DNA from: Candidatus Zhuqueibacterota bacterium
GTDB lineage: Bacteria; Zhuqueibacterota; QNDG01; JABMRT01
NCBI GenBank assembly: GCA_013202295.1
Contig: JABMRT010000118.1
Span: 16,109 to 80,108 of the forward strand
Direction: 5' to 3'
Length of the DNA: 64,000 bases
In this document: in pieces, positions 17,185 through 42,922 of the stretch
How the letters are laid out: every line of letters begins with the position of its first letter
Numbering within the stretch: the stretch's first letter is position 1
The notes under the pieces: model-generated
What the model was told of the DNA's origin: nothing
Databases searched by the model: none
Seen by the model: the letters and a program-made list of their open reading frames with translations, nothing else
Program-made: the position numbers and the translations under genes

Positions 17185-20100
17185 ATGTTTAAGAAGGTGA
17201 TCAAGGAGCAATGGGAATTTCCTGCAGAAATTGATTATCTCGGCGATATGCGGGATACGGTGATGGAGTTCGGCCGACAATACGGTGTCTCCGAGCAAGT
17301 GATAAATGCGTTCAAACTTGCAATTGATGAAGCCGGTACAAATATCATCCGGCACGCATATCGAGATTGGGATGGCAAAATCACTCTTCGAGTGATCATT
17401 CGCGATAAATCAGTCACAATATCCTTAATCGATCAGGGCCATCATTTTGATCTGAGAAAAGTGCAGGATCCGGATCTGCAGCGATACGTGGATATCGGAA
17501 AAAAGGGTGGCCTGGGGATCTTTATTATTCGCCGTGTGATCGATAAAATTGATTATAGAAAAACGTCAGAGGGCAATGAGCTCCGCCTCACAAAAAACCG
17601 ACGGGGCAATAAAGCTGGCAGTTTGATGAGTGCCGATTTGCCCTTTACCATGAAAACCCGATTCTCTCTGATTGCATCAGCGATTTTAACGCTATTTGTA
17701 TTGGCAGCGATTGTCTGGAATTATTTTGTGCAGGAAGATAAAATCCTTAATGCGAATCTGGCATCCGGACAGAATATGACTCGCTCTCTTGTGCATCAAT
17801 GTGCCGATCCTCTTGCGAAAGGATACCTTTGGGAACTCAGTGCGATTGTTTCTGAAAACCACAGAGAATGGTATCCCAAGATCAGCGAAATCATGGTGCT
17901 TGATACAGCGAATATTGTACAGGGTCTTGTGAATCTGGATTCTTTGATGAGTCAATATGTATTCCCTGTGAACGCCAGGCAAATCCGTAAGGGCATTTAT
18001 ATTATACAAACCTGGTCTGGCAAGACAGTTTATGATATTATTGAACCGGCTGTGACCCAGGTGCAGGGTCGGGAGATTCAGCTCGGATCGATTCATCTTA
18101 TGCTTGACAAAGCGGTAATTGATTCAGAAGTGGTTGATGCGAGGAAGCGCATTATTTTTAACGGGGCAATCATTCTTATTCTTGGCTGCGGCGGTATTTT
18201 CGGTTTGGTATATCTGACTTTGAGCCCCTTTAAAAAGCTTTCTAAATGGGTTCGGGATCTTGGACATGGTGAAGTGCATGATGAAATGGAATTCAATAGA
18301 TCGGATGAGATCGGCGAGATCGCCCAGGCGTTCAATGAAATCACCGAGAAATTCCGCAAATCTCAAGAAAATGTAGCTGAGCAGGAACGGCTGCAAAAAG
18401 AGATGCAAGTCGCCCAGGAAATACAACAAACTCTTCTCCCGGATTCTTTTCCCGATGTCGAGGGGTATGAATTGGCCTCCTATTATGAAGCGGCCAAAGA
18501 GGTGGGCGGCGATTATTTTGATTTTTTTAAGGTTGATCGTGACACACTCGGCATCGCTGTCGCCGATGTGTCGGGTAAAGGTGTTCCCGGATCACTCGTA
18601 ATGACCATGATTCGCACTGCACTGCGCACGGAAGCGCGCGGCAATAAAAACGCTGCGGATGTTCTTTCCAAAGTCAATGATTTTGTGATCAATGATATGA
18701 AACGGGGTATGTTTGTTACTGTTTTCTATATAATCCTTGATTCAAAACGTCGTATTATCAATTATGCCAGTGCCGGACACAATCCCATGATTCTATACAG
18801 GGGACAATCTGAAAAGAGCTATTATTTAAATCCCAGAGGATTTCCCATCGGGATTAATCTTCCGGACAAGGCGCTATTTCGTAAATCCATTGAATCTGAT
18901 ACTTTGCAGCTTAGACCGGATGATGTGCTGATTGCGTATACGGACGGTATCACGGAGGCAATGGATAAGAGCCGGAATCGATTTGGTGATGAGCGATTTC
19001 TCTCTGTATTAAGGCGGAGTGGCAACCTACAAGCCGAGCCGCTGGTAAAACGTATTCAGGAAGAAATTCAGCGTTTTACAGGCGGTTACGCGCAGAGTGA
19101 TGATATTACACTGGTTGCGATTCGTGAAAAACTAGCTGCAGAAGATGTGCTTTTTAATCATCGAAACGAGTTGTTTCGCATGGTAAAAAAAGAAGGCATG
19201 AGCGTTAAAGAAGCCTGTGAAAAAGCAGGAGTTTCGACCTCTACGTATTATAAATATAATAAACTTTATAAGAAAGAGGGTAAAGCCGGATTAAAGGAAC
19301 GTGTTTCCAAGACTGAAATTGAAGAGAAGCATATTGCCATTGAGGACAAGGCGAAAATCTATGATGTGATTAAGCAAACTCCCGAATATGGTCCGAAGCG
19401 CATTCGTGAAGAGTTGAACACAGAAAAGTACGGCTTTCTGCAGGTTGATGAAAACCGCATTTATGATGAGTTGGTCCGCAGTCGGTTAAACACCAAGGAT
19501 CTGCGTATGGCTTTTGTGGAGCGGGGTGGTCGGGGCAAACGGATGAAACCACCAGGAACACCATTTCTCACATTGGATGGCAAGGTAATTATTGAACCGA
19601 CCGTTCACCGCATACCCGTCCCGCCACCGAGACAGACAATTGTACAGGCGCCGGTTGAAGTTGAAAAAGCGGCCGAAGCACCGGATACAGTTTCAGAAAA
19701 CAAAGAATGGAACACGCTTCAGGTTGTTGATATGACCGAACAAAACGACGGTTTTGGTGAACACGAGGGCGTCTCCATAGCCGAGGAAGTCGAGATGGGT
19801 GCTGAAGAAATTGAGGAACAGATTCAGCATGATCTGGTCTCACATGGTGCTGATCAGCAGGCTGAGGTCCAACATGAAGAGGAACGGATCTCTCAAGATC
19901 TATCAGAAATTCCTGAAAGCAAAGAAGAAAACTCCGAAGAGATTTTTTCAGATCTAGATGAGATAGAATCACTCCAAAATCAGGATGCGAAGGATATAGA
20001 AGAACCGGATTTCGATGAATTTATATCTTCAGATGACGGTCTGGCTCATGCCCTTTTGACGGGATCCGACGAGAATTTTGATTTCATGGAAAAAGAATCC

Positions 20101-20781
20101 ATTGCCGAAAAACGGTCTGAAGAATTTATGAATATCGATGAGATTCTTGAGACAGACAAACCCCTATTGGTGAATGAGCATATTGATCATCGGGTTGAAG
20201 AAAATATATCTTCCTCTGCGGTGGATGATCTCATGAGTGAGGTTACGGGTGAATTGGATTTGATCTCTGCGGGTACAGTGCCGGTTGAGGAAGAGGCAGG
20301 TTTTGTTGAAATGATGGAAGGACTTGGTTTTGATCGCAGGGATGTGTTCCAGGGGGGCAAACGATCTGAGGCGGGCAAGAAAGCTGCGGAATATTATCAG
20401 CGTATGCGCTTTCATGAATCAGGTCAATGGTTTTACCGTGAGGGTCTCTACGCACGGGCTATTGAGGAATTCAGGAAAGCAATTGAATGCGATCCGAAAT
20501 TCGGAGATGCATATCACAGCATTGGTGACGCACATTTTCGGCTTGGCCAGCTTGAAAAGGCCAAAAATTCTTATATTAAGGCCAAAGAGTTGAATCCTGA
20601 AAACATTGATGTGCTTGAAAATTTGGGTGTAATTTACGCCAATCAGGGCGATTACAGACGGTCGGTTTGGCAATGGGGTGAAGTCATCAAACGGGATCCC
20701 TCCAGACTGGATATTATTGAACGCATCAAACGCATGCAGCGTGTCATTCGGCAGCGTGCTGTGTATCATAAAAGAAGTTGA
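17185..20781 (+). CDS. Multidomain membrane partner-switching regulator fusing RsbW-like anti-sigma Ser kinase, TM sensor, HAMP, PP2C/SpoIIE phosphatase, IS3-like transposase HTH modules, an acidic disordered linker and TPR repeats
   Basis: aa 1-145: HATPase_c_2 ('AIDEAGTNIIRHAY', 'GGLGIFIIRRVIDKIDY'). TM1 ~aa 160-180, a ~150-aa extracytoplasmic segment, TM2 ~aa 330-350. HAMP ('LSPFKKLSKWVRDLGHGEV...IGEIAQAFNEITEKF'). PP2C/SpoIIE ('GGDYFDFF', 'IAVADVSGKGVPGSLVMTMIRTALR', 'AYTDGITEA', 'QSDDITLVAI'). aa ~660-790: 'MVKKEGMSVKEACEKAGVSTSTYYKYNKLYKKEGKAGL' (IS3 OrfA-like HTH) and 'IYDVIKQTPEYGPKRIREELNTEKYGFLQVDENRIYDELVRSRL' (IS3 OrfB HTH_21-like). aa ~830-1010 are D/E-rich and low-complexity. 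The C-terminus has TPRs ('AIEEFRKAIECDPKFGDAYHSIGDAHFRLGQLEKAKNSYIKAKELNPEN'). Confidence 0.8.
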   Translation: MFKKVIKEQWEFPAEIDYLGDMRDTVMEFGRQYGVSEQVINAFKLAIDEAGTNIIRHAYRDWDGKITLRVIIRDKSVTISLIDQGHHFDLRKVQDPDLQRYVDIGKKGGLGIFIIRRVIDKIDYRKTSEGNELRLTKNRRGNKAGSLMSADLPFTMKTRFSLIASAILTLFVLAAIVWNYFVQEDKILNANLASGQNMTRSLVHQCADPLAKGYLWELSAIVSENHREWYPKISEIMVLDTANIVQGLVNLDSLMSQYVFPVNARQIRKGIYIIQTWSGKTVYDIIEPAVTQVQGREIQLGSIHLMLDKAVIDSEVVDARKRIIFNGAIILILGCGGIFGLVYLTLSPFKKLSKWVRDLGHGEVHDEMEFNRSDEIGEIAQAFNEITEKFRKSQENVAEQERLQKEMQVAQEIQQTLLPDSFPDVEGYELASYYEAAKEVGGDYFDFFKVDRDTLGIAVADVSGKGVPGSLVMTMIRTALRTEARGNKNAADVLSKVNDFVINDMKRGMFVTVFYIILDSKRRIINYASAGHNPMILYRGQSEKSYYLNPRGFPIGINLPDKALFRKSIESDTLQLRPDDVLIAYTDGITEAMDKSRNRFGDERFLSVLRRSGNLQAEPLVKRIQEEIQRFTGGYAQSDDITLVAIREKLAAEDVLFNHRNELFRMVKKEGMSVKEACEKAGVSTSTYYKYNKLYKKEGKAGLKERVSKTEIEEKHIAIEDKAKIYDVIKQTPEYGPKRIREELNTEKYGFLQVDENRIYDELVRSRLNTKDLRMAFVERGGRGKRMKPPGTPFLTLDGKVIIEPTVHRIPVPPPRQTIVQAPVEVEKAAEAPDTVSENKEWNTLQVVDMTEQNDGFGEHEGVSIAEEVEMGAEEIEEQIQHDLVSHGADQQAEVQHEEERISQDLSEIPESKEENSEEIFSDLDEIESLQNQDAKDIEEPDFDEFISSDDGLAHALLTGSDENFDFMEKESIAEKRSEEFMNIDEILETDKPLLVNEHIDHRVEENISSSAVDDLMSEVTGELDLISAGTVPVEEEAGFVEMMEGLGFDRRDVFQGGKRSEAGKKAAEYYQRMRFHESGQWFYREGLYARAIEEFRKAIECDPKFGDAYHSIGDAHFRLGQLEKAKNSYIKAKELNPENIDVLENLGVIYANQGDYRRSVWQWGEVIKRDPSRLDIIERIKRMQRVIRQRAVYHKRS

Positions 20782-20806
20782 CAATCTTTCAAATTTCCAT
20801 TAACTT
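20778..20806 (+). promoter_or_regulatory. Possible sigma70-like promoter for the STAS gene (-35 TTGACA 20778-20783, 17-nt spacer, -10 TAACTT 20801-20806)
   Basis: Hexamers read directly from the sequence. The -35 overlaps the upstream stop codon. Consensus usage in this lineage is unknown. Confidence 0.25.
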
Positions 20807-20853
20807 GACAAGTAACTCATTTAATTTGAATGGATTTCCGATAGGAGAATAAC

Positions 20854-21507
20854 ATGGAAGGCATACAGGTGTCCGTGGAACGTGCTGGATATCAGGGTGA
20901 CATTTCGATCATTAAGGTCGGTGGCTATATTGATACAACCACTTCTTCGGAGCTTGAACGTGCTTTGGAGGGATTGCTAAAATCCGGCATTTACAGAGTC
21001 ATTATTGATCTGCAGAATGTGGATTACATCTCCAGTGCAGGTTGGGGTATATTTATTAGTGAGATAAAAGGCATTCGTGAGAGGGATGGAGATTTAAAAC
21101 TCGCCAACATGATTCCGGATGTGTATGAAGTGTTTGAACTTCTCGAGTTTCACTATATCCTGAAAGCGTATGATTCTATTGAGGCAGCAATCCAGGATTT
21201 CAATCAGGAAGAGAATCCCATGATTGAAGAAGAAACGGTTGTTCAGGAAGATGCTGAACCGGAGGTTCCCAGCACCCAAAAAGAAGAACCATTGTCTTCC
21301 GAACCGATTCCTGACAGTCTTGAAGACATGATACGCGAAATTGCTTTGGAGAATCCGGAATTGGGTCATGGTCAAATCGCTAAAGCACTTAATACAGATA
21401 AGTATGGCTTTACGCGTGTGGGACAACTCACTGTTTGGAAAATATTACGGAAGATGCATCTCGGGTCAAAAAAAGCCAGGGAGGAGATTGCCAGAAATCG
21501 AAACTAA
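20854..21507 (+). CDS. STAS-domain anti-sigma-factor antagonist (RsbV/SpoIIAA-like) with C-terminal acidic linker and HTH-like extension homologous to a segment of the upstream regulator
   Basis: STAS core 'ISIIKVGGYIDTTTSSELERALEGLLKSGIYRVIIDLQNVDYISSAGWGIFISEI'; the position of the phosphorylatable Ser is consistent with 'DYISSAG'. The C-terminus 'MIREIALENPELGHGQIAKALNTDKYGFTRVGQLTVWKILRKMHL' parallels 'IKQTPEYGPKRIREELNTEKYGFLQVDENRIYDELVRSRL' in the 1198-aa protein. Confidence 0.8.
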   Translation: MEGIQVSVERAGYQGDISIIKVGGYIDTTTSSELERALEGLLKSGIYRVIIDLQNVDYISSAGWGIFISEIKGIRERDGDLKLANMIPDVYEVFELLEFHYILKAYDSIEAAIQDFNQEENPMIEEETVVQEDAEPEVPSTQKEEPLSSEPIPDSLEDMIREIALENPELGHGQIAKALNTDKYGFTRVGQLTVWKILRKMHLGSKKAREEIARNRN

Positions 21508-25961: not shown

Positions 25962-26609
25962 TTGTCCGGGACGTCAAATAGAAAAAGGCAGAATCACTCT
26001 GTCTTTTCTTTTTTGAATGCAAAACGGAAACGATTTTTCTGTTCTGGCGTTTTAAAAGGACATATAAAGGAGCGATCGAAGATTTTCAGGAATATCGGGG
26101 TAATACTTCATATCCTCTTCCTGTTGGGAATTCTTTCAGGGTGGATCTCTCTGGGGTGCCTCAATCCCTTTGCACCCAAGCTAACCGATCAGCTTGAAGT
26201 GGGAGATTTGGTTGTAACACAGCAAAAAACACCTTTGGAGGTATTGCAAAATTTCAAGATTTCGTATATGTTCCAGGATTCTCTTTTATATAGCAATACA
26301 ATAGATACTTCTTTCATCTTTGTTTATCGAGAGGGCACAACCAGCGAATGGGTTTCATGGGGCAGAGAAGAGGATCTTGTGACGACGGGTCGGATGTTCA
26401 GACATTTTAACGTAATTGATCTGGTTTGGAATGAGACCATAGATGAAACCCTCGAAGAAAGTGTGAGTGAAATAAGCAGAGGATTTAATCTAACTTTAAC
26501 CGGTGAACAGTCTGGTTATACGATTTCCGGCCGCGCGGATTTTACATTTCGAAAAGGCAATGATGAAAAATGGAGAATTTCACGATGGAAGGACTGGTCA
26601 GATATTTAA
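25962..26609 (+). CDS. Hypothetical protein (possible lipoprotein; true start probably internal/alternative)
   Basis: Hydrophobic segment 'VILHILFLLGILSGWISLGC' (signal/lipobox-like) followed by a soluble ~150-aa domain. No recognisable family. Confidence 0.35.
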   Translation: MSGTSNRKRQNHSVFSFLNAKRKRFFCSGVLKGHIKERSKIFRNIGVILHILFLLGILSGWISLGCLNPFAPKLTDQLEVGDLVVTQQKTPLEVLQNFKISYMFQDSLLYSNTIDTSFIFVYREGTTSEWVSWGREEDLVTTGRMFRHFNVIDLVWNETIDETLEESVSEISRGFNLTLTGEQSGYTISGRADFTFRKGNDEKWRISRWKDWSDI

Positions 26610-26683
26610 TTTCAAAGGGATTGGATGAATCTTTTTTGTCTAATCAATATAGAACTGTCTTAGCAGAACATAGAGGGTGGATC

Positions 26684-29600
26684 ATGTTATCCAGTAGAAT
26701 TAAACAAGCAAAAGGTTTTCTCGCGTTCCTGATCGGGATGATGTTTATCCTTTTTATCAATCAGGTGGCATACACTCAGGGATTCGGGAAGAACAAGGTT
26801 CAGTATCGAACCTTTGACTGGAAATTTATCCAGTCTGATCATTTCGATGTGTACTATTATGACGATGCCAAAGAGGTTGCAATTTTCACAGCAGATGTGG
26901 CTGAATCAAGCTACGTGGCCTTGAAGAAAGATTTCAAATACAAGGTGACAAATCGTATCCCCATACTCATCTATAATGGGCACAATGAGTTTCAACAGAC
27001 CAATGTCACGCTTTCTGATTTAAGTGAATCAGTCGGTGGATTCACAGAAGTCTTTAAAGATCGTGTCGTTATTCCGTTTCAAGGCAGTTACAAAGAGTAT
27101 CGTCATGTGCTGCACCATGAACTCACACACGCAGTGATGTTTCAAATGTTTTATGGCGGCGGTATGGGAGCCACCATTACAGGGATGGCTCGGTTTCAAG
27201 TTCCTTTGTGGCTGGCCGAAGGACTTGCGGAATATGAGAGTCTGGGTTGGGATACTGACAGCGATATGTACATGCGGGATGCGGCAATCAATGGCTATGT
27301 GCCCCCTATAGAGTATATGTATGGATTTATGGTATACAAAGGCGGCCAATCTGTTCTCAATTATATTGCGGACAAGTATGGCGAACAGAAAATTAGCGAG
27401 ATACTCGGTAAAGTCCGGCTTAGCCGGAATGTAAATCAGGGAATCAAACAATCCATCGGGATCGATTTGGAAGAACTTTCTGAACGATGGCATAAACATT
27501 TACGAAAAACCTATTGGCCTGATGTAGAAAACAGACATGAGCCGGAAGATTTAGCCAAACGACTCACTGATCATGAGAAAAACGAACATTTTCTGAATGG
27601 TTCACCCTCAGTTTCTCCCAAGGGCGATCGCATTGCTTATTTATCCGATCGCTCCAATTATACGGATATTTATTTAATGAGCACGGTGGATGGGCGGAAT
27701 CTGGGACGACTTGTGAAAGGGCAGCGTTCCAATCTCTTTGAAGAAATGCATTGGCTCAGGCCCGGCATGAGTTGGTCGCCGGACGGCAAGCAACTTGTTT
27801 TTGCAGCCAAAGCTTCGAATAAAGATGCCCTCTTTTTTCTTGATGTCGATGACCGAAGCATTATTTCCTCTCACAAATTCGACCTGGATGGTGTTTATTC
27901 TCCGTCCTGGTCTCCGGACGGGAATACAATCGCGTTTATGGGTCTCAAAGGCTCGCAATCCGACATCTATTTATTTCACATCGAATCGGAGGAATTAGAA
28001 AAACTCACGGATGATATTTTCAGCGATTTGGATCCGAACTGGTCTCCGGACGGATCGCAGATTGTTTTTATCTCTGACCGGCAGAATTTTTTCAGTGCGC
28101 CACCGGCCGGTTTTAAAATGTATGAACACAGTTTTGAACAAGTGGATTTATATAACATCCATGTAGATACAAGAGAAATTTCACGTTTGACGGATACAGA
28201 TGCCGAGGAGAAGAGTCCCGTATTTTCACCTGACGGCAGACAAATTTCCTATATCTCTGATGAAAGCGGGATTAGTAATATTTATATCCTCAGCCTTGGT
28301 GAAAATTCAAGCAGACCTGTAACCAATTTGCTTACGGGTGTGTCTCAACTCTCCTGGTCAAGAGATGGATCTAGATTGGTCTTTTCTTCATTTTCTACCG
28401 GTGGATATGATCTGTATCTGATCAACAATCCGATTGAAAAAACCGATATCGAGCAAATTGAACTCACACAAACTGCTTATATGGCTCGAAAAACATCTGA
28501 ACCCGATCAATCTAAAAGCCGAATAAAACCGGCTGAACAAGATGATTCTGGCAACAATTACAGCAATTTTGTTTTTGACAGCAAGTTCAAACGGGGTGAG
28601 ATGGATGCAACAGAGGCTGCTTCTCAAACCAAAGAGGATACAACCGAATATAAGACTGCGGCCGGAGAGTACATCACAAAAAACTACAGGCTTCGGTTCA
28701 CCCCGGATGTGGTTACTGGTAGTGCCGGGTACAGTCAATTCTGGGGATTGCAGGGCACATCAATGTTTGTGCTCTCTGATATTTTAGGCAACCATCAGTT
28801 CAGTTTGTATACAGATCTTTTTTACAACATCAAAAACTCCAATTTCCAGCTTGGATATTATTATCTGCCTAAAAAGACAGATTTCGGTGTTTCTCTTTTC
28901 CACTACTCCTATTTGTTCTACACCTATTTTTCGGATGGGCAATCACTCTATTATGGATACCTGAGGAATCGGAATTATGGCTTAAGTCTCTATTTTTCTC
29001 GCCCATTCAACCGATATCGCCGAATCGATTTCTCCGTTGTTGGGCTTGCTATTGACGCCGATCTTGTGGCGCTTAATCCCTATTATTACTATTATGGTGG
29101 TGATTACGAGCACGACATGGGCAATCTTTACAAACGAAGAACAATGATTTTTAATCTTGGGCACACTATGGATACAGTGCTCTGGGGGTATACCAGCCCC
29201 AAAAACGGAGGTCGTTCAAATCTGTCTGTTAATTACAGTCCGAATATTTTCGGATCGAATGGCATTTCTTTTTACGGTGCACAGGGAGACTGGCGAAAAT
29301 ATTTCAGGATAGGACGTGACTATTCATTGGGTGTTCGACTGGCCAGTGGATTTTCAAACGGAAGGAATCCACAATATTTTCTTCTTGGCGGTATGTCTAA
29401 CTGGGTCAATTATAAATATAAAGACACATCGAATGATCTGTATCTGAATGGTAAAATTTTCTTCTCGTCATTTGAGGGGCCGTTGCGCGGAACACCTTTT
29501 TATGAAATGATCGGAACCCGATTCGCTTTAATGAATCTTGAATTACGTTTTCCACTGATAAAATATCTCATATTAGGAGGGCCGCTTCGCATTGGATTTC

Positions 29601-29848
29601 AGAATATTCGCGGTGTGCTTTTCATGGATGCCGGATCTGCATGGACGGATAATTCATCGTGGAAACCGTTCACTTCTCAACCGGGCGGCAATGGACCGAG
29701 AATGGCTGATATGCGCAGTGGATATGGATTTGGTGCCAGGGTGAATATGGGATTCCTGCTTTTACGATATGATCTCGCCTGGAAAACCGATCTGTATCGA
29801 ACGTGGAGAAAGCCTATGCATTATTGGTCTTTGGGAGCGGATTTTTAA
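26684..29848 (+). CDS. Outer-membrane protein fusing a putative HExxH zinc-metallopeptidase-like domain, a TolB-like PD40 beta-propeller and a C-terminal Omp85-family beta-barrel
   Basis: Probable start at ATG 26684 (signal peptide 'FLAFLIGMMFILFINQVAYTQ'). 'YRHVLHHELTHAVMFQMFYGG' is an HExxH motif. Five PD40 repeats ('SWSPDGKQLVFAA', 'SWSPDGNTIAFMG', 'NWSPDGSQIVFISDR', 'VFSPDGRQISYISDESG', 'SWSRDGSRLVFSS'). The C-terminal ~350 aa is Tyr/Gly-rich with beta-strand character, containing 'PLRGTPFYEMIG...LELRFPL' (Omp85 VRGY-like) and ending '...YDLAWKTD...WSLGADF' with a terminal aromatic. Confidence 0.65.
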   Translation: MLSSRIKQAKGFLAFLIGMMFILFINQVAYTQGFGKNKVQYRTFDWKFIQSDHFDVYYYDDAKEVAIFTADVAESSYVALKKDFKYKVTNRIPILIYNGHNEFQQTNVTLSDLSESVGGFTEVFKDRVVIPFQGSYKEYRHVLHHELTHAVMFQMFYGGGMGATITGMARFQVPLWLAEGLAEYESLGWDTDSDMYMRDAAINGYVPPIEYMYGFMVYKGGQSVLNYIADKYGEQKISEILGKVRLSRNVNQGIKQSIGIDLEELSERWHKHLRKTYWPDVENRHEPEDLAKRLTDHEKNEHFLNGSPSVSPKGDRIAYLSDRSNYTDIYLMSTVDGRNLGRLVKGQRSNLFEEMHWLRPGMSWSPDGKQLVFAAKASNKDALFFLDVDDRSIISSHKFDLDGVYSPSWSPDGNTIAFMGLKGSQSDIYLFHIESEELEKLTDDIFSDLDPNWSPDGSQIVFISDRQNFFSAPPAGFKMYEHSFEQVDLYNIHVDTREISRLTDTDAEEKSPVFSPDGRQISYISDESGISNIYILSLGENSSRPVTNLLTGVSQLSWSRDGSRLVFSSFSTGGYDLYLINNPIEKTDIEQIELTQTAYMARKTSEPDQSKSRIKPAEQDDSGNNYSNFVFDSKFKRGEMDATEAASQTKEDTTEYKTAAGEYITKNYRLRFTPDVVTGSAGYSQFWGLQGTSMFVLSDILGNHQFSLYTDLFYNIKNSNFQLGYYYLPKKTDFGVSLFHYSYLFYTYFSDGQSLYYGYLRNRNYGLSLYFSRPFNRYRRIDFSVVGLAIDADLVALNPYYYYYGGDYEHDMGNLYKRRTMIFNLGHTMDTVLWGYTSPKNGGRSNLSVNYSPNIFGSNGISFYGAQGDWRKYFRIGRDYSLGVRLASGFSNGRNPQYFLLGGMSNWVNYKYKDTSNDLYLNGKIFFSSFEGPLRGTPFYEMIGTRFALMNLELRFPLIKYLILGGPLRIGFQNIRGVLFMDAGSAWTDNSSWKPFTSQPGGNGPRMADMRSGYGFGARVNMGFLLLRYDLAWKTDLYRTWRKPMHYWSLGADF

Positions 29849-29876: not shown

Positions 29877-31637
29877 ATGTTTCGACGATGGTGTGCATTC
29901 TTTTTTATATCATTTGGATTTACTATAGCCTTTGCGCAGACTGATCCTGCATTAAAAGTAATCGCAAACATGAATCCCGATAGTGTGCCAGCTGGCGGAA
30001 CGGGACAATTGGAATTGATCATCGAGATTCCCAAAGATTACCATGTCAGTGATGCAGAGAGTGGCTTATTCTCTGTCCACTTGCCAGAAGATCAATCCAT
30101 CCAGTTTGGAAACATTCAATATCCCAAGGGCGAGAAGGACAAATGGGGTACGATATACAGAGATCAAGTCAAGCTCGAGATTCCTGTTCATATTTCTTCT
30201 TCCTCCACTACAGGGGCGAGACAGATTCCGTTCACAATAGAATTCCAACCTTGTGATGAAGTCAATGATTTCTGCCTGGCACCCATGACTCAAGCCTCGT
30301 CGTTTGAAGTGACCATTCTTCCGGGCGGGAATTTGCCTGAAACGCTCACCACAGATCGGAGTATTTCGGGCCGCGTGACGCGCGCCCTTGAGCAGGGTTC
30401 CATAATCGCATTTCTCCTGGTTTTTATCGGTGGAGTGCTCACCAGTCTGACACCTTGTGTGTATCCGATGATTCCCATCACGGTTGCTGTGATAGGCGCG
30501 CAGGCCACAGGCGGCAAGATGAAAGGATTTGTACTCTCCCTGTTTTATGTTTTAGGTATTTCCATCACCTTTTCTTCTCTGGGTATTCTGGCCGCAACCA
30601 CCGGATCGCTGTTCGGTGCGATTACTCAGCATCCTGCAGTGCAAATTGTGATCGCGGCCATCTTTTTTATTATGGGGCTGTCCATGCTCGGTGCGTTTGT
30701 GGTGCAACTTCCTGCCAGCATCCGAATGAAGATCCAGAACAAAAAACGAAGTGGATTTTTAGGCGCACTTCTTACGGGCATAGTCGCCGGACTCATTGTC
30801 TCGCCCTGTGTCAGCCCCCTGCTCGTCGCGATTCTTACGTGGGTGGCCAAGACAGGATCTGTGATGTTAGGTTTTGGTCTGCTCTTTACGTTCGCCTGGG
30901 GAATTGGGGTGTTATTCATTTTGCTGGGCACTTTCTCCGGTGTTCTCAAGAATTTACCCAGGGGCGGCGGCTGGACCGAATATATTGAACGCATCTTTGG
31001 GCTGATCCTCCTGGTGCTTGCCCTGGTTTTTGTGCGTTCAATGCTGCCGGCTTTTTATTATCAGTCCCTCTGGGCCGTATTTCTGGTGGTGCTCGGTACG
31101 TTCCTTGGCGGATTTTCATCTTTACCAGAGGCCTCCCTGCCAAAACAGAAAATCGGCAAGGCGATCGGTTTTCTTCTGATTTTAATCGGGTCTGCCCTGC
31201 TACTCTCCGGACTGGCTGATCGTGCAGGATTCTCGGTTCCTCAAACCGGTGTCAGCGCCACCTCTATCGAAACAAGTGAAGAAAGTATATGGTTGGATGA
31301 CACGGAAGAAGCATTTCTGTTAGCTGCCATGGATGACCGTCCGGTTCTCATCGATTTTTACGCAGATTGGTGCGCGGCCTGTCATGAGTTGGATGAAAAG
31401 ACCTGGCCCGATCCCAAAGTGAGGGATCTGATGAGTCAGATGATTCCGGTAAAATTGGATCTGACACAGAACAATGACCGCACACGTGTACTTCAAAATG
31501 AGTACGGGATTATAGGCATGCCGACAGTCATTTTGTACGATGCCGAGCGCAATGAGATGGCCCGGTTTACCGGGTTCCAGTCCCCGGAGAAAGTGGTCAG
31601 CATCCTGAATCAGGCTTTGGAGGCTGCCCGTTCATGA
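29877..31637 (+). CDS. dsbD: Thiol:disulfide interchange protein DsbD (periplasmic alpha domain, CcdA-like TM core, C-terminal thioredoxin domain)
   Basis: TM-core cysteines in 'LTPCVYPMIP' and 'VSPCVSPLL'. C-terminal thioredoxin 'WCAACHE'. N-terminal periplasmic domain with a cysteine pair ('CDEVNDFC'). Confidence 0.85.
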   Translation: MFRRWCAFFFISFGFTIAFAQTDPALKVIANMNPDSVPAGGTGQLELIIEIPKDYHVSDAESGLFSVHLPEDQSIQFGNIQYPKGEKDKWGTIYRDQVKLEIPVHISSSSTTGARQIPFTIEFQPCDEVNDFCLAPMTQASSFEVTILPGGNLPETLTTDRSISGRVTRALEQGSIIAFLLVFIGGVLTSLTPCVYPMIPITVAVIGAQATGGKMKGFVLSLFYVLGISITFSSLGILAATTGSLFGAITQHPAVQIVIAAIFFIMGLSMLGAFVVQLPASIRMKIQNKKRSGFLGALLTGIVAGLIVSPCVSPLLVAILTWVAKTGSVMLGFGLLFTFAWGIGVLFILLGTFSGVLKNLPRGGGWTEYIERIFGLILLVLALVFVRSMLPAFYYQSLWAVFLVVLGTFLGGFSSLPEASLPKQKIGKAIGFLLILIGSALLLSGLADRAGFSVPQTGVSATSIETSEESIWLDDTEEAFLLAAMDDRPVLIDFYADWCAACHELDEKTWPDPKVRDLMSQMIPVKLDLTQNNDRTRVLQNEYGIIGMPTVILYDAERNEMARFTGFQSPEKVVSILNQALEAARS

Positions 31638-39118: not shown

Positions 39119-42100
39119 ATGGCAGAGAAAAAGACACGCAAATCCGCAAAAAGATCTCCAGGAAGGTTCCGGAGACGGTTTCTCTGGAGTATCGGTATCC
39201 TCTTGTCGCTCATCCTATTGTTCAACCTTTTAATTCGTTTGTTCTTTCCCGAGCACAAGATTCGTGCACTCTTGGCCGATCAGATTTATCAAGCCACGGG
39301 CCGCCCATTTGAAGTCGACCGAATTTCATGGAGCTTGCTCGGTGCTCTGGATTTGGAAGGCGTACGCCTGGGATTTACCGAGGCAGAAGGCAAACCGGAT
39401 GCATATCTCGTCCAAATGGAGCGAGGGCGGCTTCGTTTTAGGCTGTTGCCGCTCCTAAAGAAGCAGCTCCAGGTTTCAGATATTCTCCTTGATACTCCGC
39501 AGATCCATTTGATTCCTGCAGTTCTTGCAAGTCAGGACACACTTTCTGGCGTGTCCTCTAACACTCCAAAATCGAAAGTCTCAGAGATTGATACCAGTTC
39601 CTTTAAAAAAGAATCCTTGCCGATCTCGATGGGACTGTCGAAATTTAATCTGAAGGATTTCCGTCTTCGTATCTCCTTTCCAGATTCCATACAACTGAAA
39701 GAAATTGAACTGACAGGATTAAATGTCAATGTACAGGATCTTTATGTGCCAACTGATATTCTCAAAAATCAGGATCGGCTTCGTGGGCAAGTGCGTGTTT
39801 TTACAGAGGACGCCCGATTATTCATAAAAGCGACTGATTTAACTGCTGAGTGGACTCCGAATTTCGATATTCAGGCGGTCTGGGCGAAAGAAGCGCGATG
39901 GCGTGTCCGGGGCGGAATCCATTTACTGCCCAGGGATAATCCCGCCGACAGTTTATTTATGGATCTGGATATAGAGGGTCGAGGTTTGGGTCAGGAAACG
40001 CGTATGCGGCATCTGGCAATCGGGCTTGGCCCGTGGCGGCCCATTCTAATGACCGGCACAGTCCAAATAGTCGATGAGGAACCCATCTATGATATGCAAC
40101 TCGGCGGTGATGAAGTGGATTTATCCGCGATCACTGCTTTTCTCCAACGCACCCTTCCCTCACCTTTTAGTGATCCACTTAATGATCTTGAATTGTCAGG
40201 TAAAATGTCCCTCTTAAACGGCCAGGTTCACGGTAAGGGGCTGGATGTTCATGCGAAAATCCTATCCCGGCTCGACCAAGCCCGACTTGCTATCCCTAAG
40301 CAATCCATATCAGTGGGCCCAGTAAACTATGAATTTGAGATCGACGGGGAATGGAATCCAAAGGGTTTGAAAAAGGCACATATACTCGGGAGCATGGAGA
40401 TTGAGCAAGTATCCGCACCGTTGAGTGATACTTCCGATGTCTCTGTGCGTGACATTCGAATTTTCCTTGATACAAATCTGGATTCCCTCTTTTATCCCGC
40501 TCAGGGTCAAATCAAGGTCAATGTGGGCAATCTCTATCAGAGCCGGATGAACCTCGGATTGAACTGGGATGCAAAGGATTTGCCATCCCTAAAGGATTTT
40601 CGGTTGGACGGAGAACTTCGCCTTGATTCCCTGTTCGTGGAAAACCTGCCCATTCCCGATCTGCCGGTTGTGGGGCAGGTGGGAGCCGGTCTTACTATTC
40701 GAGCCACGGGCATGGATTCCATTCTTATTGAATTGACGGGCAATACGAGTGATGGTCAGATGCTTACAGATTTCGGCAGGGACAATGTACCTGATTACAA
40801 TTGGATGGCCAAGATCCATGCCCAAGTGGCAGAGGATTTTTCTGAGCTCACTGTACCGTCTGCACGTTTTCGTATAGGCGAGCTGTTCTCCCTGGATGCC
40901 AATGCCCGTTTCCTTCCGGAAACCCGGCAATTCCAGGCGGAAGTCACGGACGCCCATTTTCATAATGAAAAAATCCAAAATTATTTGCCAGAACAAATTC
41001 ATGCAGAGTTGGCTCATTTGAGGTTGGGAGGAGAGGAGACATTCCAAGGCATTGTGACGGGTCAGCTCACGGATTCAATCCCGATGTATAAACTGTCCGC
41101 CGAAGTCGGTGTAAGCAGTGGGAGTATGCAGGACACACTGTCCGGCATTTCAGTCCAGGACATTGAGGCTGAAATTAAGACTTCGGGAGATCAGGATCGC
41201 ATTGAGGGCACAGGTTCCATCAAGGTTGGAGAATTTATTCTCGCTTCACAGGGGCCCGATCCCATTCGGAATGGTCACATCCAATTCGACTGGGGCGTGC
41301 AGAATCCCGATAGCCTGTGGATCGACGCGGGTCAATTTTTGATCGACAGCCTGGGTGTGCAATCGCAATTCGACGCCACTGTGCATCCGAGTGATTCGAT
41401 TCCTTTAATCAGCAGCCGCATCCGACTGGGAGTATCTTCTCACAATTGGAAAAATATCGTTCAGGGCATTCAATTTAAAGGAGGCTTAAACGGAGAGATC
41501 CAAGCTTCCAACGACCTGCTTGATCGTAACAAAATCCTCCTTGAGGGCCATATCGCATTTGATTCGCTGTCAATCAATCAGGGTGAATTGATTCAGATTG
41601 TGGATGTTCAAGGCCGGATTCCCCTGCGCTTTCATGCCAGTCTGGATGGCCGGCTCATTCCGGAAGCTCATTATGAGCCGGTCAGCTGGATTGAATATGA
41701 AGAGCGGCAGGATTTAATCCGAACACTTTGGTCAGGTGATAAGCGGTTGCAGATTCAGTCTATCAAGATCAATGACTATGCCATCAATCACATCCGGATG
41801 GATACGGATTTCAGTCATGGCATGATTCAAATTCCTTCCTTTCAGATGGAGGTTTTTGAGGGCAATATCGGAGGCTCGCTCTGGTTCGATCCGGCGGATG
41901 GTCGGCTGGAGATGATGCGGTATGGTATTCGCGCGCAAGCCTCACGCATCAATTCCGCAGCTCTCACGGAGAATCAGAAATCAAAGGAGAATACGGAACT
42001 CAACGCCAACCTGGCTTTTAACGGGCAGGGTCTGGATATTGAAAAAGGATTGGACTTTGATGGATATTTTCATATTACACAGGTGGGGCCCAAATTTGCG

Positions 42101-42343
42101 AGCACCTTACTGAAAGGAATGGATCCCAAGGGTTCGGACCGCTCGATCCGTTTGACACGACGCCTGCTGGATATGGGATGGAAACCCAAACTGTTCAGTT
42201 TTGAGCTGAGACACGGTCACGTGTATCCATCGCTGTCGCTTTCTCAGCCGTGGTTTTCACCCATTCGAATTCCTGGCAGGCTGGAATACGGGCGCATCCC
42301 GTTCGCGTTTTTTCTTTCGAATCAATTAACAGCACCACAATAG
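39119..42343 (+). CDS. AsmA/TamB/YdbH-like large inner-membrane-anchored periplasmic protein
   Basis: N-terminal basic stretch plus TM anchor ('RRRFLWSIGILLSLILLFNLLI'). ~1050-aa periplasmic beta-rich region, with size and topology like the AsmA family. No catalytic motifs. Confidence 0.5.
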   Translation: MAEKKTRKSAKRSPGRFRRRFLWSIGILLSLILLFNLLIRLFFPEHKIRALLADQIYQATGRPFEVDRISWSLLGALDLEGVRLGFTEAEGKPDAYLVQMERGRLRFRLLPLLKKQLQVSDILLDTPQIHLIPAVLASQDTLSGVSSNTPKSKVSEIDTSSFKKESLPISMGLSKFNLKDFRLRISFPDSIQLKEIELTGLNVNVQDLYVPTDILKNQDRLRGQVRVFTEDARLFIKATDLTAEWTPNFDIQAVWAKEARWRVRGGIHLLPRDNPADSLFMDLDIEGRGLGQETRMRHLAIGLGPWRPILMTGTVQIVDEEPIYDMQLGGDEVDLSAITAFLQRTLPSPFSDPLNDLELSGKMSLLNGQVHGKGLDVHAKILSRLDQARLAIPKQSISVGPVNYEFEIDGEWNPKGLKKAHILGSMEIEQVSAPLSDTSDVSVRDIRIFLDTNLDSLFYPAQGQIKVNVGNLYQSRMNLGLNWDAKDLPSLKDFRLDGELRLDSLFVENLPIPDLPVVGQVGAGLTIRATGMDSILIELTGNTSDGQMLTDFGRDNVPDYNWMAKIHAQVAEDFSELTVPSARFRIGELFSLDANARFLPETRQFQAEVTDAHFHNEKIQNYLPEQIHAELAHLRLGGEETFQGIVTGQLTDSIPMYKLSAEVGVSSGSMQDTLSGISVQDIEAEIKTSGDQDRIEGTGSIKVGEFILASQGPDPIRNGHIQFDWGVQNPDSLWIDAGQFLIDSLGVQSQFDATVHPSDSIPLISSRIRLGVSSHNWKNIVQGIQFKGGLNGEIQASNDLLDRNKILLEGHIAFDSLSINQGELIQIVDVQGRIPLRFHASLDGRLIPEAHYEPVSWIEYEERQDLIRTLWSGDKRLQIQSIKINDYAINHIRMDTDFSHGMIQIPSFQMEVFEGNIGGSLWFDPADGRLEMMRYGIRAQASRINSAALTENQKSKENTELNANLAFNGQGLDIEKGLDFDGYFHITQVGPKFASTLLKGMDPKGSDRSIRLTRRLLDMGWKPKLFSFELRHGHVYPSLSLSQPWFSPIRIPGRLEYGRIPFAFFLSNQLTAPQ

Positions 42344-42358
42344 AAGGAGGATTAAATC

Positions 42359-42922
42359 ATGAAAAAGTGGATTGTCGTTCTAGGGATCATGATCCTTGCC
42401 GGTTTGATCGTTTCATGCAGTATCAAACCCCCTGAAGTTCGGGTCACCGGCGAGATGACTGCGCTTGAAAACGAAGTACTGGGAACGTATCGTGAGATTG
42501 AGCAGGACACATGGATGGTGGCTTCCACCCGGTCTTCAGGGACTGGAAAAGGACAGACGCTCTCACCAGAGAAGAAACTTGTGCTTGACGCCAAACGGCG
42601 GCAGAAATTCAATCAGGATGATGTCATGGAAATGAAGACCGCCAAATTGATTGGTGAAAACAATCAGGGATTTCTTGAGGTGGTTGACAATGAGAAGCTT
42701 CAGGTCGATTCCGAAAAAGAGGAGTTTGTGACCATTTTGGTCACGGAAGAGAATGAAGACCGTGAAGTCATTGTGGATCGGGTGATTGAACTGAATGAAA
42801 ACCTGAAGGATGCTGTGCGTGAAAACATACTTGCGATCTTTGCTGAGATGAATCAAAAAAATTCGCCGATTGGCTCCTGGATTCAGGATCATATTGGCAA
42901 ATGGATACTGAAAGCAGAATGA
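42359..42922 (+). CDS. Lipoprotein of unknown function
   Basis: GGAGG RBS. Signal peptide with lipobox 'LIVSC'. A Glu/Lys-rich soluble domain. It overlaps the start of the downstream giant gene by 22 nt. Confidence 0.55.
   Translation: MKKWIVVLGIMILAGLIVSCSIKPPEVRVTGEMTALENEVLGTYREIEQDTWMVASTRSSGTGKGQTLSPEKKLVLDAKRRQKFNQDDVMEMKTAKLIGENNQGFLEVVDNEKLQVDSEKEEFVTILVTEENEDREVIVDRVIELNENLKDAVRENILAIFAEMNQKNSPIGSWIQDHIGKWILKAE

What the first reader, a model, noticed from the sequence alone, without database searches (positions are those of the whole stretch)
26684..29848. Unusual outer-membrane fusion: HExxH metallopeptidase-like domain + TolB-like PD40 propeller + Omp85-family beta-barrel
Visible in the sequence: a signal peptide, then an N-terminal ~250-aa domain with a single 'HHELTH' zinc-binding-like motif, five PD40 repeats (SPDG...), and a ~350-aa Tyr/Gly-rich C-terminal region with Omp85-like 'LRGTPFYE' and terminal '...WSLGADF'. 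dsbD follows 28 bp downstream.

Inference: this is an Omp85-type barrel whose periplasmic or extracellular moiety is not POTRA domains but a propeller plus a putative protease. It could be a self-inserting surface protease or a substrate-capturing assembly factor. I do not recognise the combination as a standard BamA, TamA or TpsB architecture.
Basis: partly seen in the sequence, partly recalled or inferred. Interest (0 to 1): 0.6.

Follow-up and report, generated by a model that had tools for sequence, protein, structure and literature searches.

The report
Protease-propeller-Omp85 barrel fusion protein
This gene encodes an outer-membrane barrel protein of the Omp85 family that carries a zinc-protease domain and a TolB-like propeller instead of the usual POTRA domains; the architecture is real and widespread, was catalogued by computer in 2014 as the "WD40-like Omp85" subfamily, and has never been studied experimentally.

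Summary
Window 26684-29848 (+) encodes a 1054-aa, cysteine-free protein with four parts:
- a cleavable signal peptide;
- a ~260-aa gluzincin metallopeptidase domain (H145-E-L-T-H149, third ligand E179 in WLAEGLAEYES; Pfam Peptidase_MA_2 above cut-off; fold matches only M9 collagenases and M1 aminopeptidases);
- a six-bladed (not five) TolB-type PD40 propeller, then a ~70-aa disordered linker with no POTRA;
- a 16-strand Omp85 barrel with a BamA-like L6 loop (PLRGTPFYE) and a C-terminal ...GADF.

The fusion is not unusual. At least 553 species genomes across the FCB group encode it (KSB1, Calditrichota, Ignavibacteriota, Bacteroidota, Chlorobi-like, Marinimicrobia, Zixibacteria). It is always one ORF, and the catalytic and barrel motifs are conserved.

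Heinz & Lithgow (2014) already described this "WD40-like Omp85" subfamily, including aminopeptidase-like, TolB-like and BamA-like fold assignments. No function has been shown.

The dsbD adjacency is confined to the window's clade.

Best reading: a periplasm-facing, outer-membrane-anchored zinc peptidase whose propeller captures unfolded polypeptide, acting in envelope protein quality control or processing. The architecture is firm; the function is inferred. It is a new member of a known, uncharacterised kind, of modest interest.

The parts
26673..26677 (+). Shine-Dalgarno-like GAGGG, 6 nt upstream of the ATG at 26684
   Evidence: Read directly from the sequence. Supports 26684 rather than the in-frame ATG at 26570, which would overlap the upstream ORF.
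26684..26776 (+). Signal peptide (aa 1-31), SPase I type, predicted cleavage before Q32
   Evidence: Basic n-region, hydrophobic core, no Cys. Position and length are conserved, with a Gln two residues before the invariant FGKNKVQY in homologues. The cleavage site is inferred, not computed.
26777..27553 (+). Gluzincin (clan MA(E)) zinc-metallopeptidase domain, aa ~32-290
   Evidence: Pfam Peptidase_MA_2, aa 73-273, 46.4 bits against cut-off 32.4. AF2 domain model pLDDT 75.5. Foldseek PDB hits are only M9 collagenase peptidase domains and M1 aminopeptidases, E 8e-5 to 1e-3, TMq 0.5-0.58.
27116..27130 (+). HExxH zinc-binding/catalytic motif, H145-E146-L147-T148-H149
   Evidence: H145, E146 and H149 invariant in 28 homologues and in 14 FCB-wide orthologues. 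HExxH present in 150/150 representatives.
27209..27241 (+). Third-ligand helix WLAEGLAEYES (aa 176-186). E179 is the proposed third zinc ligand; E183 is at the ExxxD-type second-shell position.
   Evidence: W176, E179, G180 and E183 invariant. The W..EG..E motif follows HExxH in 147/150 representatives. The assignment of E179 rests on the resemblance to the M1 'WLNEGFA' motif (established knowledge; inference).
27554..28429 (+). Six-bladed TolB-type PD40 beta-propeller, aa ~291-582
   Evidence: Pfam PD40, 6 stretches, 110 bits. NCBIfam TolB model matched in part, 1e-41, 143 bits against cut-off 343. PDB sequence hits to TolB, 1e-12. Foldseek hits to TolB and to the S9 peptidase propeller, ~1e-12. 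pLDDT mostly 85-95.
28430..28696 (+). Linker, aa 583-671. Residues 607-651 are low-complexity and predicted disordered. No POTRA.
   Evidence: pLDDT below 50 for 607-651. Poorly conserved and indel-rich in the alignment. No POTRA (PF07244) hit at E<=1.
28697..29845 (+). 16-strand Omp85-family beta-barrel, aa 672-1054, ending in the beta-signal-like ...YWSLGADF
   Evidence: 16 strands in DSSP of the AF2 model. TIGR03303 BamA 8.7e-8 across the barrel part of the model, TamL 2e-7. Orthologues hit PF01103 in 7 of 14 cases, best 9e-17. Foldseek hits to BamA barrels 4k3b, 4c4v and 6fsu at ~1e-11.
29480..29506 (+). L6-loop motif P-L-R-G-T-P-F-Y-E (aa 933-941), the counterpart of the BamA (V/I)RG(F/Y) motif
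   Evidence: P933, R935, G936 and Y940 invariant. Lies in the long loop 893-945 between strands 11 and 12. It is the only stretch matched by the profile search against a PDB BamA sequence (8xnb).
29877..31637 (+). dsbD (thiol:disulfide interchange protein), 28 bp downstream. A neighbour, probably co-transcribed, not part of the feature.
   Evidence: Pfam DsbD_N + DsbD_TM + thioredoxin. Downstream in only 12 of 80 related loci. The target protein has 0 Cys. No terminator-like site in the gap.
25962..26609 (+). Upstream small ORF, lipoprotein-like (ISLGC, Cys66), no known family. A clade-specific neighbour.
   Evidence: No Pfam family. Residues 68-215 are conserved at 52-68% identity immediately upstream in 10 of 80 loci.

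Best explanation
The gene encodes a member of the 'WD40-like Omp85' subfamily. Its parts are a signal peptide, a compact gluzincin zinc-peptidase domain, a six-bladed TolB-type PD40 propeller packed directly against that domain, a flexible ~70-residue tether, and a 16-strand BamA-like barrel without POTRA domains.

Proposed working (inferred). The barrel is inserted in the outer membrane with both of its ends in the periplasm. It anchors the peptidase-propeller unit under the outer membrane on a flexible leash. The propeller captures unfolded or extended polypeptide, as PD40 propellers do in TolB, S9 peptidases and tricorn. It presents that polypeptide to the HExxH...E active site, which cleaves it.

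The protein would then serve in housekeeping envelope proteostasis, degrading or processing unassembled outer-membrane or periplasmic proteins. In role it would be comparable to BepA acting at the BAM complex in E. coli.

Shown here: domain identities, conservation of the catalytic and barrel motifs, the obligate fusion, and the wide FCB-group distribution. Inferred: topology, substrates and physiological role.
For: Architecture:
- Pfam Peptidase_MA_2 above cut-off and PD40 x6.
- The barrel region hits the BamA and TamL models; orthologues hit PF01103.
- AF2 full model pLDDT 75.7, pTM 0.68, with 16 strands and the long L6-like loop between strands 11 and 12.
- Foldseek matches TolB and BamA for the full model and M9/M1 gluzincins only for the N-domain.

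Active enzyme likely:
- H145, E146, H149, E179 and E183 are invariant across 28 homologues and across phyla.
- HExxH occurs in 150/150 and W..EG..E in 147/150 representatives.

Rigid catalytic unit on a leash:
- The peptidase-propeller junction (YWPD...EP...LTDH) is invariant and confidently modelled (pLDDT 83-86).
- Residues 607-651 have pLDDT below 40 and are indel-rich.

Periplasmic orientation:
- The long loops fall after strands 7, 11 and 13, the positions of L4, L6 and L7. The short turns alternate with them. The clade-variable Tyr-rich insertion lies in L4.
- This is the standard BamA topology, which places the start of strand 1, and hence the linker, in the periplasm.
- Heinz & Lithgow note that solved Omp85-type barrels are closed to the outside (PMC4104836).

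Housekeeping role:
- At least 553 species genomes encode a relative. The best 80 loci all match in a single reading frame, 78 of them over the full length; two are cut by contig ends.
- The N-domain profile finds 1235 50%-identity clusters at E<=1e-30.
- Neighbours differ by lineage. In several lineages they are envelope-related: dsbD, mlaE plus an ABC ATPase, ccsA. In others they are not: RNase R, a GWxTD protein.
Against: - No experiment exists for any member (literature searches).
- Topology was deduced from secondary-structure order only. Model coordinates could not be inspected, so I could not see where AF2 places the N-terminal unit or whether the barrel lumen is occluded.
- No conserved partner gene points to a substrate.
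- The window copy itself misses Pfam PF01103 at E<=1, so the barrel is divergent.
- The barrel keeps the L6 RG motif and a beta-signal, which is more conservation than a mere anchor would need. It may therefore have an activity of its own.
- The BepA analogy is by role only. BepA is M48 plus TPR, and is unrelated in fold to the domains found here.
Confidence: 0.5

Rival explanations
1. Surface-displayed or secreted protease (type V-like). The Omp85 barrel exports its own N-terminal peptidase-propeller passenger to the cell surface, as PlpD (type Vd) does with its patatin domain. The enzyme would then act on external proteins, for nutrition or surface remodelling.
For: - Passenger-plus-Omp85-barrel fusions that export the passenger exist. 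PlpD is discussed in PMC4104836, where the same alternative is raised for another non-POTRA Omp85 subfamily.
- The long disordered linker (607-651) could span a barrel lumen.
- The N-domain's best fold matches include secreted M9 collagenases.
Against: - There is no POTRA between passenger and barrel, whereas most PlpD-type proteins have one.
- The barrel is BamA/TamL-like, with an L6 RG loop positioned as in BamA.
- The passenger would be a ~550-residue folded unit that includes a closed six-bladed propeller.
- The single-copy, near-universal distribution in the FCB group resembles a housekeeping factor more than an accessory secreted enzyme.
Confidence: 0.15
2. Primarily an outer-membrane protein assembly or translocation factor. 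The barrel works as an insertase like BamA, TamA or TamL, and the propeller replaces POTRA and BamB as a substrate or partner docking platform (the 'BamA-BamB fusion' idea of Heinz & Lithgow). The peptidase would be an accessory that trims or clears substrates.
For: - The barrel keeps the features tied to Omp85 function, namely the invariant L6 P-x-R-G motif, 16 strands and a C-terminal aromatic.
- 13 of 14 orthologue barrels hit the TamL model and 10 of 14 hit the BamA model.
- The proposal is in PMC4104836.
- An AsmA-family gene lies about 9 kb downstream in the window, though it is not adjacent.
Against: - The propeller is a six-bladed PD40/TolB type. BamB is described as an eight-bladed propeller sharing similarity with PQQ-repeat domains (PMC11358297), so the BamB analogy is superficial.
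- There is no POTRA to hand over substrates.
- The ~70-residue floppy linker is ill-suited to positioning a substrate at a lateral gate.
- No TamB-like or BAM lipoprotein gene is a conserved neighbour.
- The invariance of the catalytic residues says proteolysis is central, not accessory.
Confidence: 0.2
3. Envelope tether or Tol-Pal-like structural element. The TolB-like propeller binds Pal or another peptidoglycan-associated lipoprotein and links an outer-membrane barrel to the cell wall. The peptidase domain would act on peptidoglycan stem peptides or lipoprotein links rather than on proteins.
For: - The closest sequence and fold matches of the propeller are TolB itself.
- Heinz & Lithgow recall TolB's proposed link to peptidoglycan and lipoproteins, and the Pal-BamA interaction.
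Against: - Only the propeller part of the TolB model is matched (143 bits against cut-off 343). The best stretch covers positions 197-300 of 418, and the TolA-binding N-terminal domain of TolB is absent.
- PD40 propellers are equally typical of S9 peptidases.
- Nothing here tests Pal binding.
- The fold neighbours of the peptidase are protein and peptide hydrolases.
Confidence: 0.1

Closest known systems
'WD40-like' (WD40-Omp85) subfamily of the Omp85/TpsB superfamily, Heinz & Lithgow 2014 (PMC4104836)
   Same: - Same architecture: PD40 (PF07676) repeats N-terminal to an Omp85 barrel (PF01103), and no POTRA (Table S2).
- Their Phyre2 table assigns the same three folds as found here: a BamA/TamA barrel, a TolB propeller and an M1-type aminopeptidase (1z5h, 4kxd, 4fgm) (Table S3).
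- By my recollection of the UniProt accessions, not checked here, their members include FCB-group organisms such as Caldithrix and Rhodothermus. Related lineages appear.
   Different: - Direct sequence clustering of the window protein with their listed accessions was not run, so membership rests on architecture.
- Their text discusses only the propeller ('BamA-BamB-like fusion') and does not analyse the peptidase active site.
- They had 61 proteins. The family is now seen in at least 553 species genomes and 1235 50%-identity clusters.
BamA / TamA / TamL (canonical Omp85 insertases)
   Same: - 16-strand barrel.
- Long L6 loop with a conserved RG motif between strands 11 and 12.
- C-terminal aromatic residue.
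- Profile hits to the BamA and TamL models, and fold hits to BamA barrels.
   Different: - No POTRA domains.
- Scores are far below the equivalog cut-offs: 31 against 297 bits for BamA, 30 against 400 for TamL.
- Not a lipoprotein, unlike TamL.
- Carries an enzyme and a propeller instead of POTRA.
TolB (Tol-Pal system)
   Same: Six-bladed PD40 propeller. TolB gives the best sequence and structure matches for aa ~300-580.
   Different: - Lacks the TolB N-terminal domain.
- 143 bits against the 343-bit cut-off.
- Fused to a peptidase and a membrane barrel.
Gluzincin peptidases: Pfam Peptidase_MA_2, M9 collagenase peptidase domain, M1 aminopeptidase catalytic domain
   Same: - HExxH followed by a downstream Glu ligand on a helix reading W-L-x-E-G-x-A, which resembles the M1 WLNEGFA motif.
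- Thermolysin-like fold.
- The HExxH-to-Glu spacing of 29 residues is close to that of M9 (about 27, from memory).
   Different: - Only the ~260-aa catalytic core is present. It has no M1 N-terminal or C-terminal domains and no collagenase activator domain.
- No sequence-level hit to any PDB peptidase.
- Specificity (endo- or exopeptidase) is unknown. An invariant GGFTE strand lies where M1 enzymes have GAMEN (inference).
BepA (E. coli M48 metalloprotease acting at BAM) and PlpD (patatin-Omp85, type Vd)
   Same: - BepA is a periplasmic HExxH zinc protease that works at an Omp85 machine in OMP quality control (PMC8423444, PMC13478230, abstracts). That is the role proposed here.
- PlpD is an enzyme fused N-terminally to an Omp85 barrel.
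   Different: - BepA is M48 plus TPR, a separate soluble protein, and not related in fold to the domains found here.
- In PlpD the enzyme is a lipase, the protein usually has a POTRA, and the passenger is exported.

Membership tests
Omp85 superfamily (barrel) | C-terminal 16-stranded beta-barrel homologous to BamA (Pfam PF01103 / BamA models) | tested here: met
   - 16 strands in the AF2 model.
- TIGR03303 8.7e-8 over model positions 402-720 of 741, TamL 2e-7.
- Foldseek hits to BamA barrels, E~1e-11, ~440 columns.
- 7 of 14 orthologues hit PF01103, best 9e-17.
- Caveat: the window copy itself has no PF01103 hit at E<=1.
Omp85 superfamily (barrel) | Conserved (V/I/L)RG(F/Y) motif in loop L6 between strands 11 and 12 | tested here: met
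   P-L-R-G-T-P-F-Y at aa 933-940 within loop 893-945. R935 and G936 are invariant in 28 close and 14 distant orthologues. The motif aligns to the BamA RG region (8xnb).
Omp85 superfamily (barrel) | C-terminal beta-signal ending in an aromatic residue | tested here: met
   The protein ends ...YWSLGADF. The terminal residue is F, Y, I or L in all aligned homologues (F in most).
BamA / TamA / TamL / TpsB (canonical Omp85/TpsB members) | One or more N-terminal POTRA domains | tested here: not met
   No POTRA (PF07244/PF08479) hit at E<=1. No beta-alpha-alpha-beta-beta unit between propeller and barrel in the AF2 model; that region is disordered.
BamA / TamL orthologue (NCBIfam equivalogs) | Score above the curated cut-off | tested here: not met
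   31 against 297 bits (BamA) and 29.8 against 400 bits (TamL).
'WD40-like Omp85' subfamily (Heinz & Lithgow 2014) | PD40/WD40-like propeller N-terminal to the Omp85 barrel, without POTRA | tested here: met
   Searches match the domain profiles of Table S2.
'WD40-like Omp85' subfamily (Heinz & Lithgow 2014) | Aminopeptidase-like (M1-type gluzincin) domain at the N-terminus by fold recognition | tested here: met
   The N-domain model matches PepN, ERAP1, F3 (1z1w) and LTA4H, as well as M9 collagenases. Their Table S3 lists 1z5h, 4kxd and 4fgm.
'WD40-like Omp85' subfamily (Heinz & Lithgow 2014) | Sequence clustering with their listed UniProt members (e.g. H1XQ58, D0MEQ5) | not tested
Full-length 41-44% identical orthologues from Calditrichota, Ignavibacteriota and Bacteroidota were found, which makes shared membership likely.
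Gluzincin metallopeptidase (clan MA(E), Pfam Peptidase_MA_2) | HExxH plus a downstream Glu third ligand in a thermolysin-like fold; Pfam score above the gathering cut-off | tested here: met
   46.4 against 32.4 bits. H145, E146, H149 and E179 are invariant. Fold hits are exclusively gluzincins. Zinc binding and catalysis themselves cannot be tested with these tools.
TolB | N-terminal TolA-binding alpha/beta domain plus six-bladed propeller; equivalog score | tested here: not met
   Only the propeller part of TIGR02800 is matched, 143 against 343 bits (best stretch, positions 197-300 of 418). No TolB N-domain.
Type Vd secretion (PlpD-like) | Passenger - POTRA - Omp85 barrel, with the passenger exported | tested here: inconclusive
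   The enzyme-barrel fusion is present, but there is no POTRA and no patatin domain. Export cannot be tested computationally.

The most novel reading that the evidence does not exclude
The protein is a self-contained outer-membrane protein quality-control machine of the FCB group. The BamA-like barrel would engage stalled or mis-targeted beta-barrel substrates through its conserved L6 loop and seam. The leashed propeller-gluzincin unit would then degrade them from the periplasmic side. That is a cis-fused functional counterpart of the BAM-BepA partnership of Proteobacteria, evolved from unrelated parts.
Probability: 0.15. Interest if true: 0.7.

Novelty: new member of a known kind. Interest (0 to 1): 0.3.

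Why it matters
The family appears to be a conserved, probably housekeeping, envelope component across the FCB group, including Bacteroidota. It keeps an intact zinc-protease active site and a BamA-like barrel, yet nobody has tested what it does.

If it is an outer-membrane-anchored quality-control protease, it would fill a gap in how these phyla police outer-membrane protein biogenesis. Most of that knowledge currently comes from Proteobacteria: BAM, BepA, DegP.

For this scan the practical point is smaller. The window holds an ordinary orthologue of a catalogued subfamily, not a new architecture.

Tried and rejected
- **dsbD as functional partner: rejected.** The target has no cysteine, and dsbD follows in only 12 of 80 loci, all in the closest clade.
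- **Conserved-neighbour search: no universal partner.** Across 80 loci the neighbours are lineage-specific:
  - RNase R upstream in Ignavibacteriota;
  - mlaE plus an ABC ATPase downstream in Calditrichota/LCP-89;
  - a GWxTD protein downstream in other KSB1;
  - ccsA upstream in 7 loci.
- **Large Ignavibacteriota protein.** A 1170-1316-aa protein two genes upstream looked TamB-like by eye but has no Pfam hit. Not pursued.
- **Profile-versus-PDB sequence searches.** Nothing for the N-domain. For the barrel, only a marginal BamA hit, E=0.75. Fold comparison was needed.
- **In-frame upstream ATG at 26570: rejected as the start.** It overlaps the upstream ORF, has no homologue support, and the SD-like site sits before 26684.
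- **'BamA-BamB fusion' reading.** Judged superficial, because the propeller is six-bladed PD40/TolB-type, not BamB-type.
- **Gene split in relatives: rejected.** 110 of the 150 best N-domain representatives are at least 900 aa. The 40 shorter ones mostly stop mid-domain, colinear with the query, as expected for contig-end fragments.
- **Literature searches for functional work.** Only the 2014 classification and later one-line mentions.

Full report
**1. What is in the sequence**

The ORF spans 26570..29848 on the + strand.
- It gives a 1054-aa product identical to an NCBI protein from a candidate division KSB1 bacterium (P0001, 'PD40 domain-containing protein').
- The N-termini of 27 homologues align to it.
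- An SD-like GAGGG sits 6 nt upstream.
- The alternative ATG at 26570 would overlap the upstream ORF.

The first 31 residues form a typical SPase I signal peptide without cysteine. A Gln is conserved two residues before the invariant FGKNKVQY, so the mature protein probably starts at Q32 (sequence reading; cleavage not computed). dsbD begins 28 bp after the stop codon.

**2. Domain by domain**

*N-terminal peptidase domain (aa ~32-290).*
- Pfam Peptidase_MA_2 is matched above its gathering score (46.4 against 32.4 bits, E=5e-12).
- H145, E146 and H149 of HHELTH are invariant. So are W176, E179, G180 and E183 of WLAEGLAEYES, in 28 homologues and in 14 orthologues drawn from different phyla.
- Among the 150 best family representatives, HExxH is present in all 150 and the W..EG..E helix in 147.
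- A separate AF2 model of the domain (pLDDT 75.5) matches only gluzincins in the PDB. The hits are the peptidase domains of clostridial and Vibrio M9 collagenases and the catalytic domains of M1 aminopeptidases: PepN, ERAP1, tricorn factor F3 and LTA4H (E 8e-5 to about 5e-3, TMq 0.5-0.58).
- E179 is the likely third zinc ligand, by analogy with WLNEGFA of M1 enzymes. The 29-residue spacing resembles M9 more than M1. Both points are inference from established knowledge.
- A sequence profile alone finds no PDB relative.

*Propeller (aa ~291-582).*
- Pfam finds six PD40 repeats (110 bits).
- The NCBIfam TolB model is matched only over its propeller part (143 against 343 bits).
- PDB sequence and fold searches give TolB and an S9 peptidase propeller.
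The sixth reads SWSRDG.
- The junction with the peptidase domain (YWPD..EP..LTDH) is invariant and confidently modelled. The two domains therefore probably form one rigid unit.

*Linker (aa 583-671).* Residues 607-651 have pLDDT below 40, are rich in charged residues and are full of indels. There is no POTRA hit and no POTRA-like secondary-structure unit.

*Barrel (aa 672-1054).*
- The AF2 model has 16 strands. A 53-residue loop between strands 11 and 12 carries the invariant P-L-R-G-x-x-x-Y, the counterpart of the BamA L6 VRGF motif.
- The chain ends in ...GADF.
- Searched alone, the region hits the BamA model TIGR03303 across its whole barrel part (8.7e-8) and TamL (2e-7), both far below the equivalog cut-offs.
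- 13 of 14 orthologue barrels hit TamL and 10 of 14 hit BamA. 7 of 14 hit Pfam PF01103, best 9e-17.
- Foldseek aligns about 440 columns to many BamA structures at E~1e-11.
- The window copy itself does not reach PF01103 at E<=1, so the barrel is divergent but clearly homologous.

**3. Distribution**
The best 80 are all single ORFs, colinear with the query and 40-65% identical. 78 cover essentially its whole length; two are cut by a contig end.
- They come from KSB1, LCP-89, Calditrichota, Ignavibacteriota, Bacteroidota, Chlorobi-like, Kryptonia, Marinimicrobia and Zixibacteria genomes.
- The N-domain profile finds 1235 50%-identity clusters at E<=1e-30.
- 110 of the best 150 representatives are at least 900 aa, and 106 of those align past residue 1000 of the query. 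The shorter ones mostly stop mid-domain, as contig-end fragments do.
- The fusion is therefore obligate and ancient within the FCB group, not a local oddity.

**4. Context**
- The window is a run of housekeeping genes on one strand: aconitase, monomeric IDH, the target, dsbD, an AlaX-like protein and others.
- dsbD follows the gene in only 12 of 80 loci, and a small lipoprotein-like ORF precedes it in 10. All of these are in the closest clade.
- Elsewhere the neighbours differ: mlaE plus an ABC ATPase, a GWxTD protein, RNase R, or ccsA.
- The target has no cysteine, so it is not a DsbD client.
- There is no conserved partner. In several lineages, but not all, the neighbours are envelope-related.

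**5. What is already known**

Heinz & Lithgow (2014, PMC4104836) split the Omp85/TpsB superfamily into subfamilies that include a 'WD40-like' one.
- Its Pfam profiles are PF01103 plus one to five PF07676 repeats, without POTRA (Table S2).
- Their Phyre2 table assigns to its members a BamA/TamA barrel, a TolB propeller and a 'best aminopeptidase hit' (1z5h, 4kxd, 4fgm) at over 99% confidence (Table S3).
- A 2024 paper summarises the subfamily as having 'divergent WD40 and peptidase domains' (PMC11358297).
- I found no functional study.

**6. How it most likely works**

*Shown.* There is an intact, strongly conserved gluzincin active site. A TolB-type propeller is rigidly joined to it. A flexible tether links this unit to a BamA-like barrel that keeps its L6 motif and beta-signal.

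*Inferred topology.* The long loops follow strands 7, 11 and 13, that is L4, L6 and L7. They alternate with short turns, and the clade-variable Tyr-rich insertion lies in L4. This is the BamA arrangement, which puts the start of strand 1, and hence the linker and the N-terminal unit, in the periplasm.

*Inferred mechanism.* The barrel anchors the enzyme beneath the outer membrane. The propeller binds extended polypeptide, as PD40 propellers do in TolB, S9 peptidases and tricorn. The zinc site then cleaves it.

*Most plausible role.* Housekeeping envelope proteostasis or processing, comparable in role but not in ancestry to BepA at BAM. I give the mechanism about 0.5. The architecture itself is close to certain.

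*Rivals.*
- A surface-exported passenger, type Vd-like: 0.15.
- An insertase whose propeller is a docking platform: 0.2.
- A Tol-Pal-like tether: 0.1.

**7. Limits**
- Model coordinates could not be inspected.
- Two fold libraries were unavailable.
- Direct clustering with the 2014 accessions was not done.
- No tool here tests zinc binding, activity or topology.

**8. Verdict**

This is a new member of a known, uncharacterised subfamily. Interest is modest (0.3). The value lies in the family as a whole being an untested, widely conserved envelope factor, not in this locus.

Noticed in passing
window 25962-26609 (+): A small ORF lies immediately upstream of the target. It has a lipoprotein-like signal (…GWISLGC, Cys66) and no Pfam family. 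Residues 68-215 are 52-68% identical in 10 related loci, always directly upstream of the orthologue, and only in the closest clade. It may be a clade-specific partner.
   Followed up: partly
window 39119-42343 (+): A 1074-aa AsmA-family protein (Pfam AsmA 1.3e-17) lies about 9 kb downstream. AsmA/TamB-like proteins partner with Omp85 proteins elsewhere, but this one is not adjacent and the link was not tested.
   Followed up: no
window 8160-15146 (+) and 42901-51114 (+): Two giant ORFs of 2328 and 2737 aa. The first has only a weak FlgD_ig-like match at its extreme C-terminus (aa 2246-2315), which might be a sorting or secretion tail. The second was not examined.
   Followed up: no
window 17185-21507 (+): A 1198-aa protein combines an HATPase_c_2 kinase-like domain, HAMP, a SpoIIE phosphatase, an HTH and TPR repeats. 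It is followed by a STAS-domain protein. This looks like an unusually fused partner-switching module.
   Followed up: no
window 29075-29140 approx. (aa ~798-820 of the target; alignment A1 columns ~840-870): A Tyr-rich insertion (LNPYYYYYGGDYEHDMG) in the predicted extracellular loop L4 is present only in the window's clade and absent from more distant KSB1 orthologues. This kind of variability is typical of a surface-exposed loop.
   Followed up: partly
P0129 (family representative, 519 aa): One representative aligns to the N-terminal peptidase domain and to the very C-terminus of the barrel (ends YWSLGLDF), yet is only 519 aa. It is either a propeller-less variant or an assembly artefact.
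   Followed up: no
Loci L030-L035, L039, L040, L067, L071 (downstream of the orthologue); L024, L030, L031, L033, L038, L048, L051 (upstream): In Calditrichota/LCP-89 genomes the orthologue is followed by mlaE and an ABC ATPase (MlaF-like). In seven loci it is preceded by a CcsA-type cytochrome c assembly gene. Together with dsbD in the window clade, this hints at a loose, shifting association with envelope-biogenesis genes.
   Followed up: partly
window 26774-26779 (Q32 of the target) and homologues in alignment A1: A Gln is conserved at the predicted +1 position after signal-peptide cleavage in nearly all homologues. This recalls the 'Q-rule' (N-terminal pyroglutamate) described for Bacteroidetes SPase I substrates. 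The Q-rule is cited from memory, not checked in the literature here.
   Followed up: no
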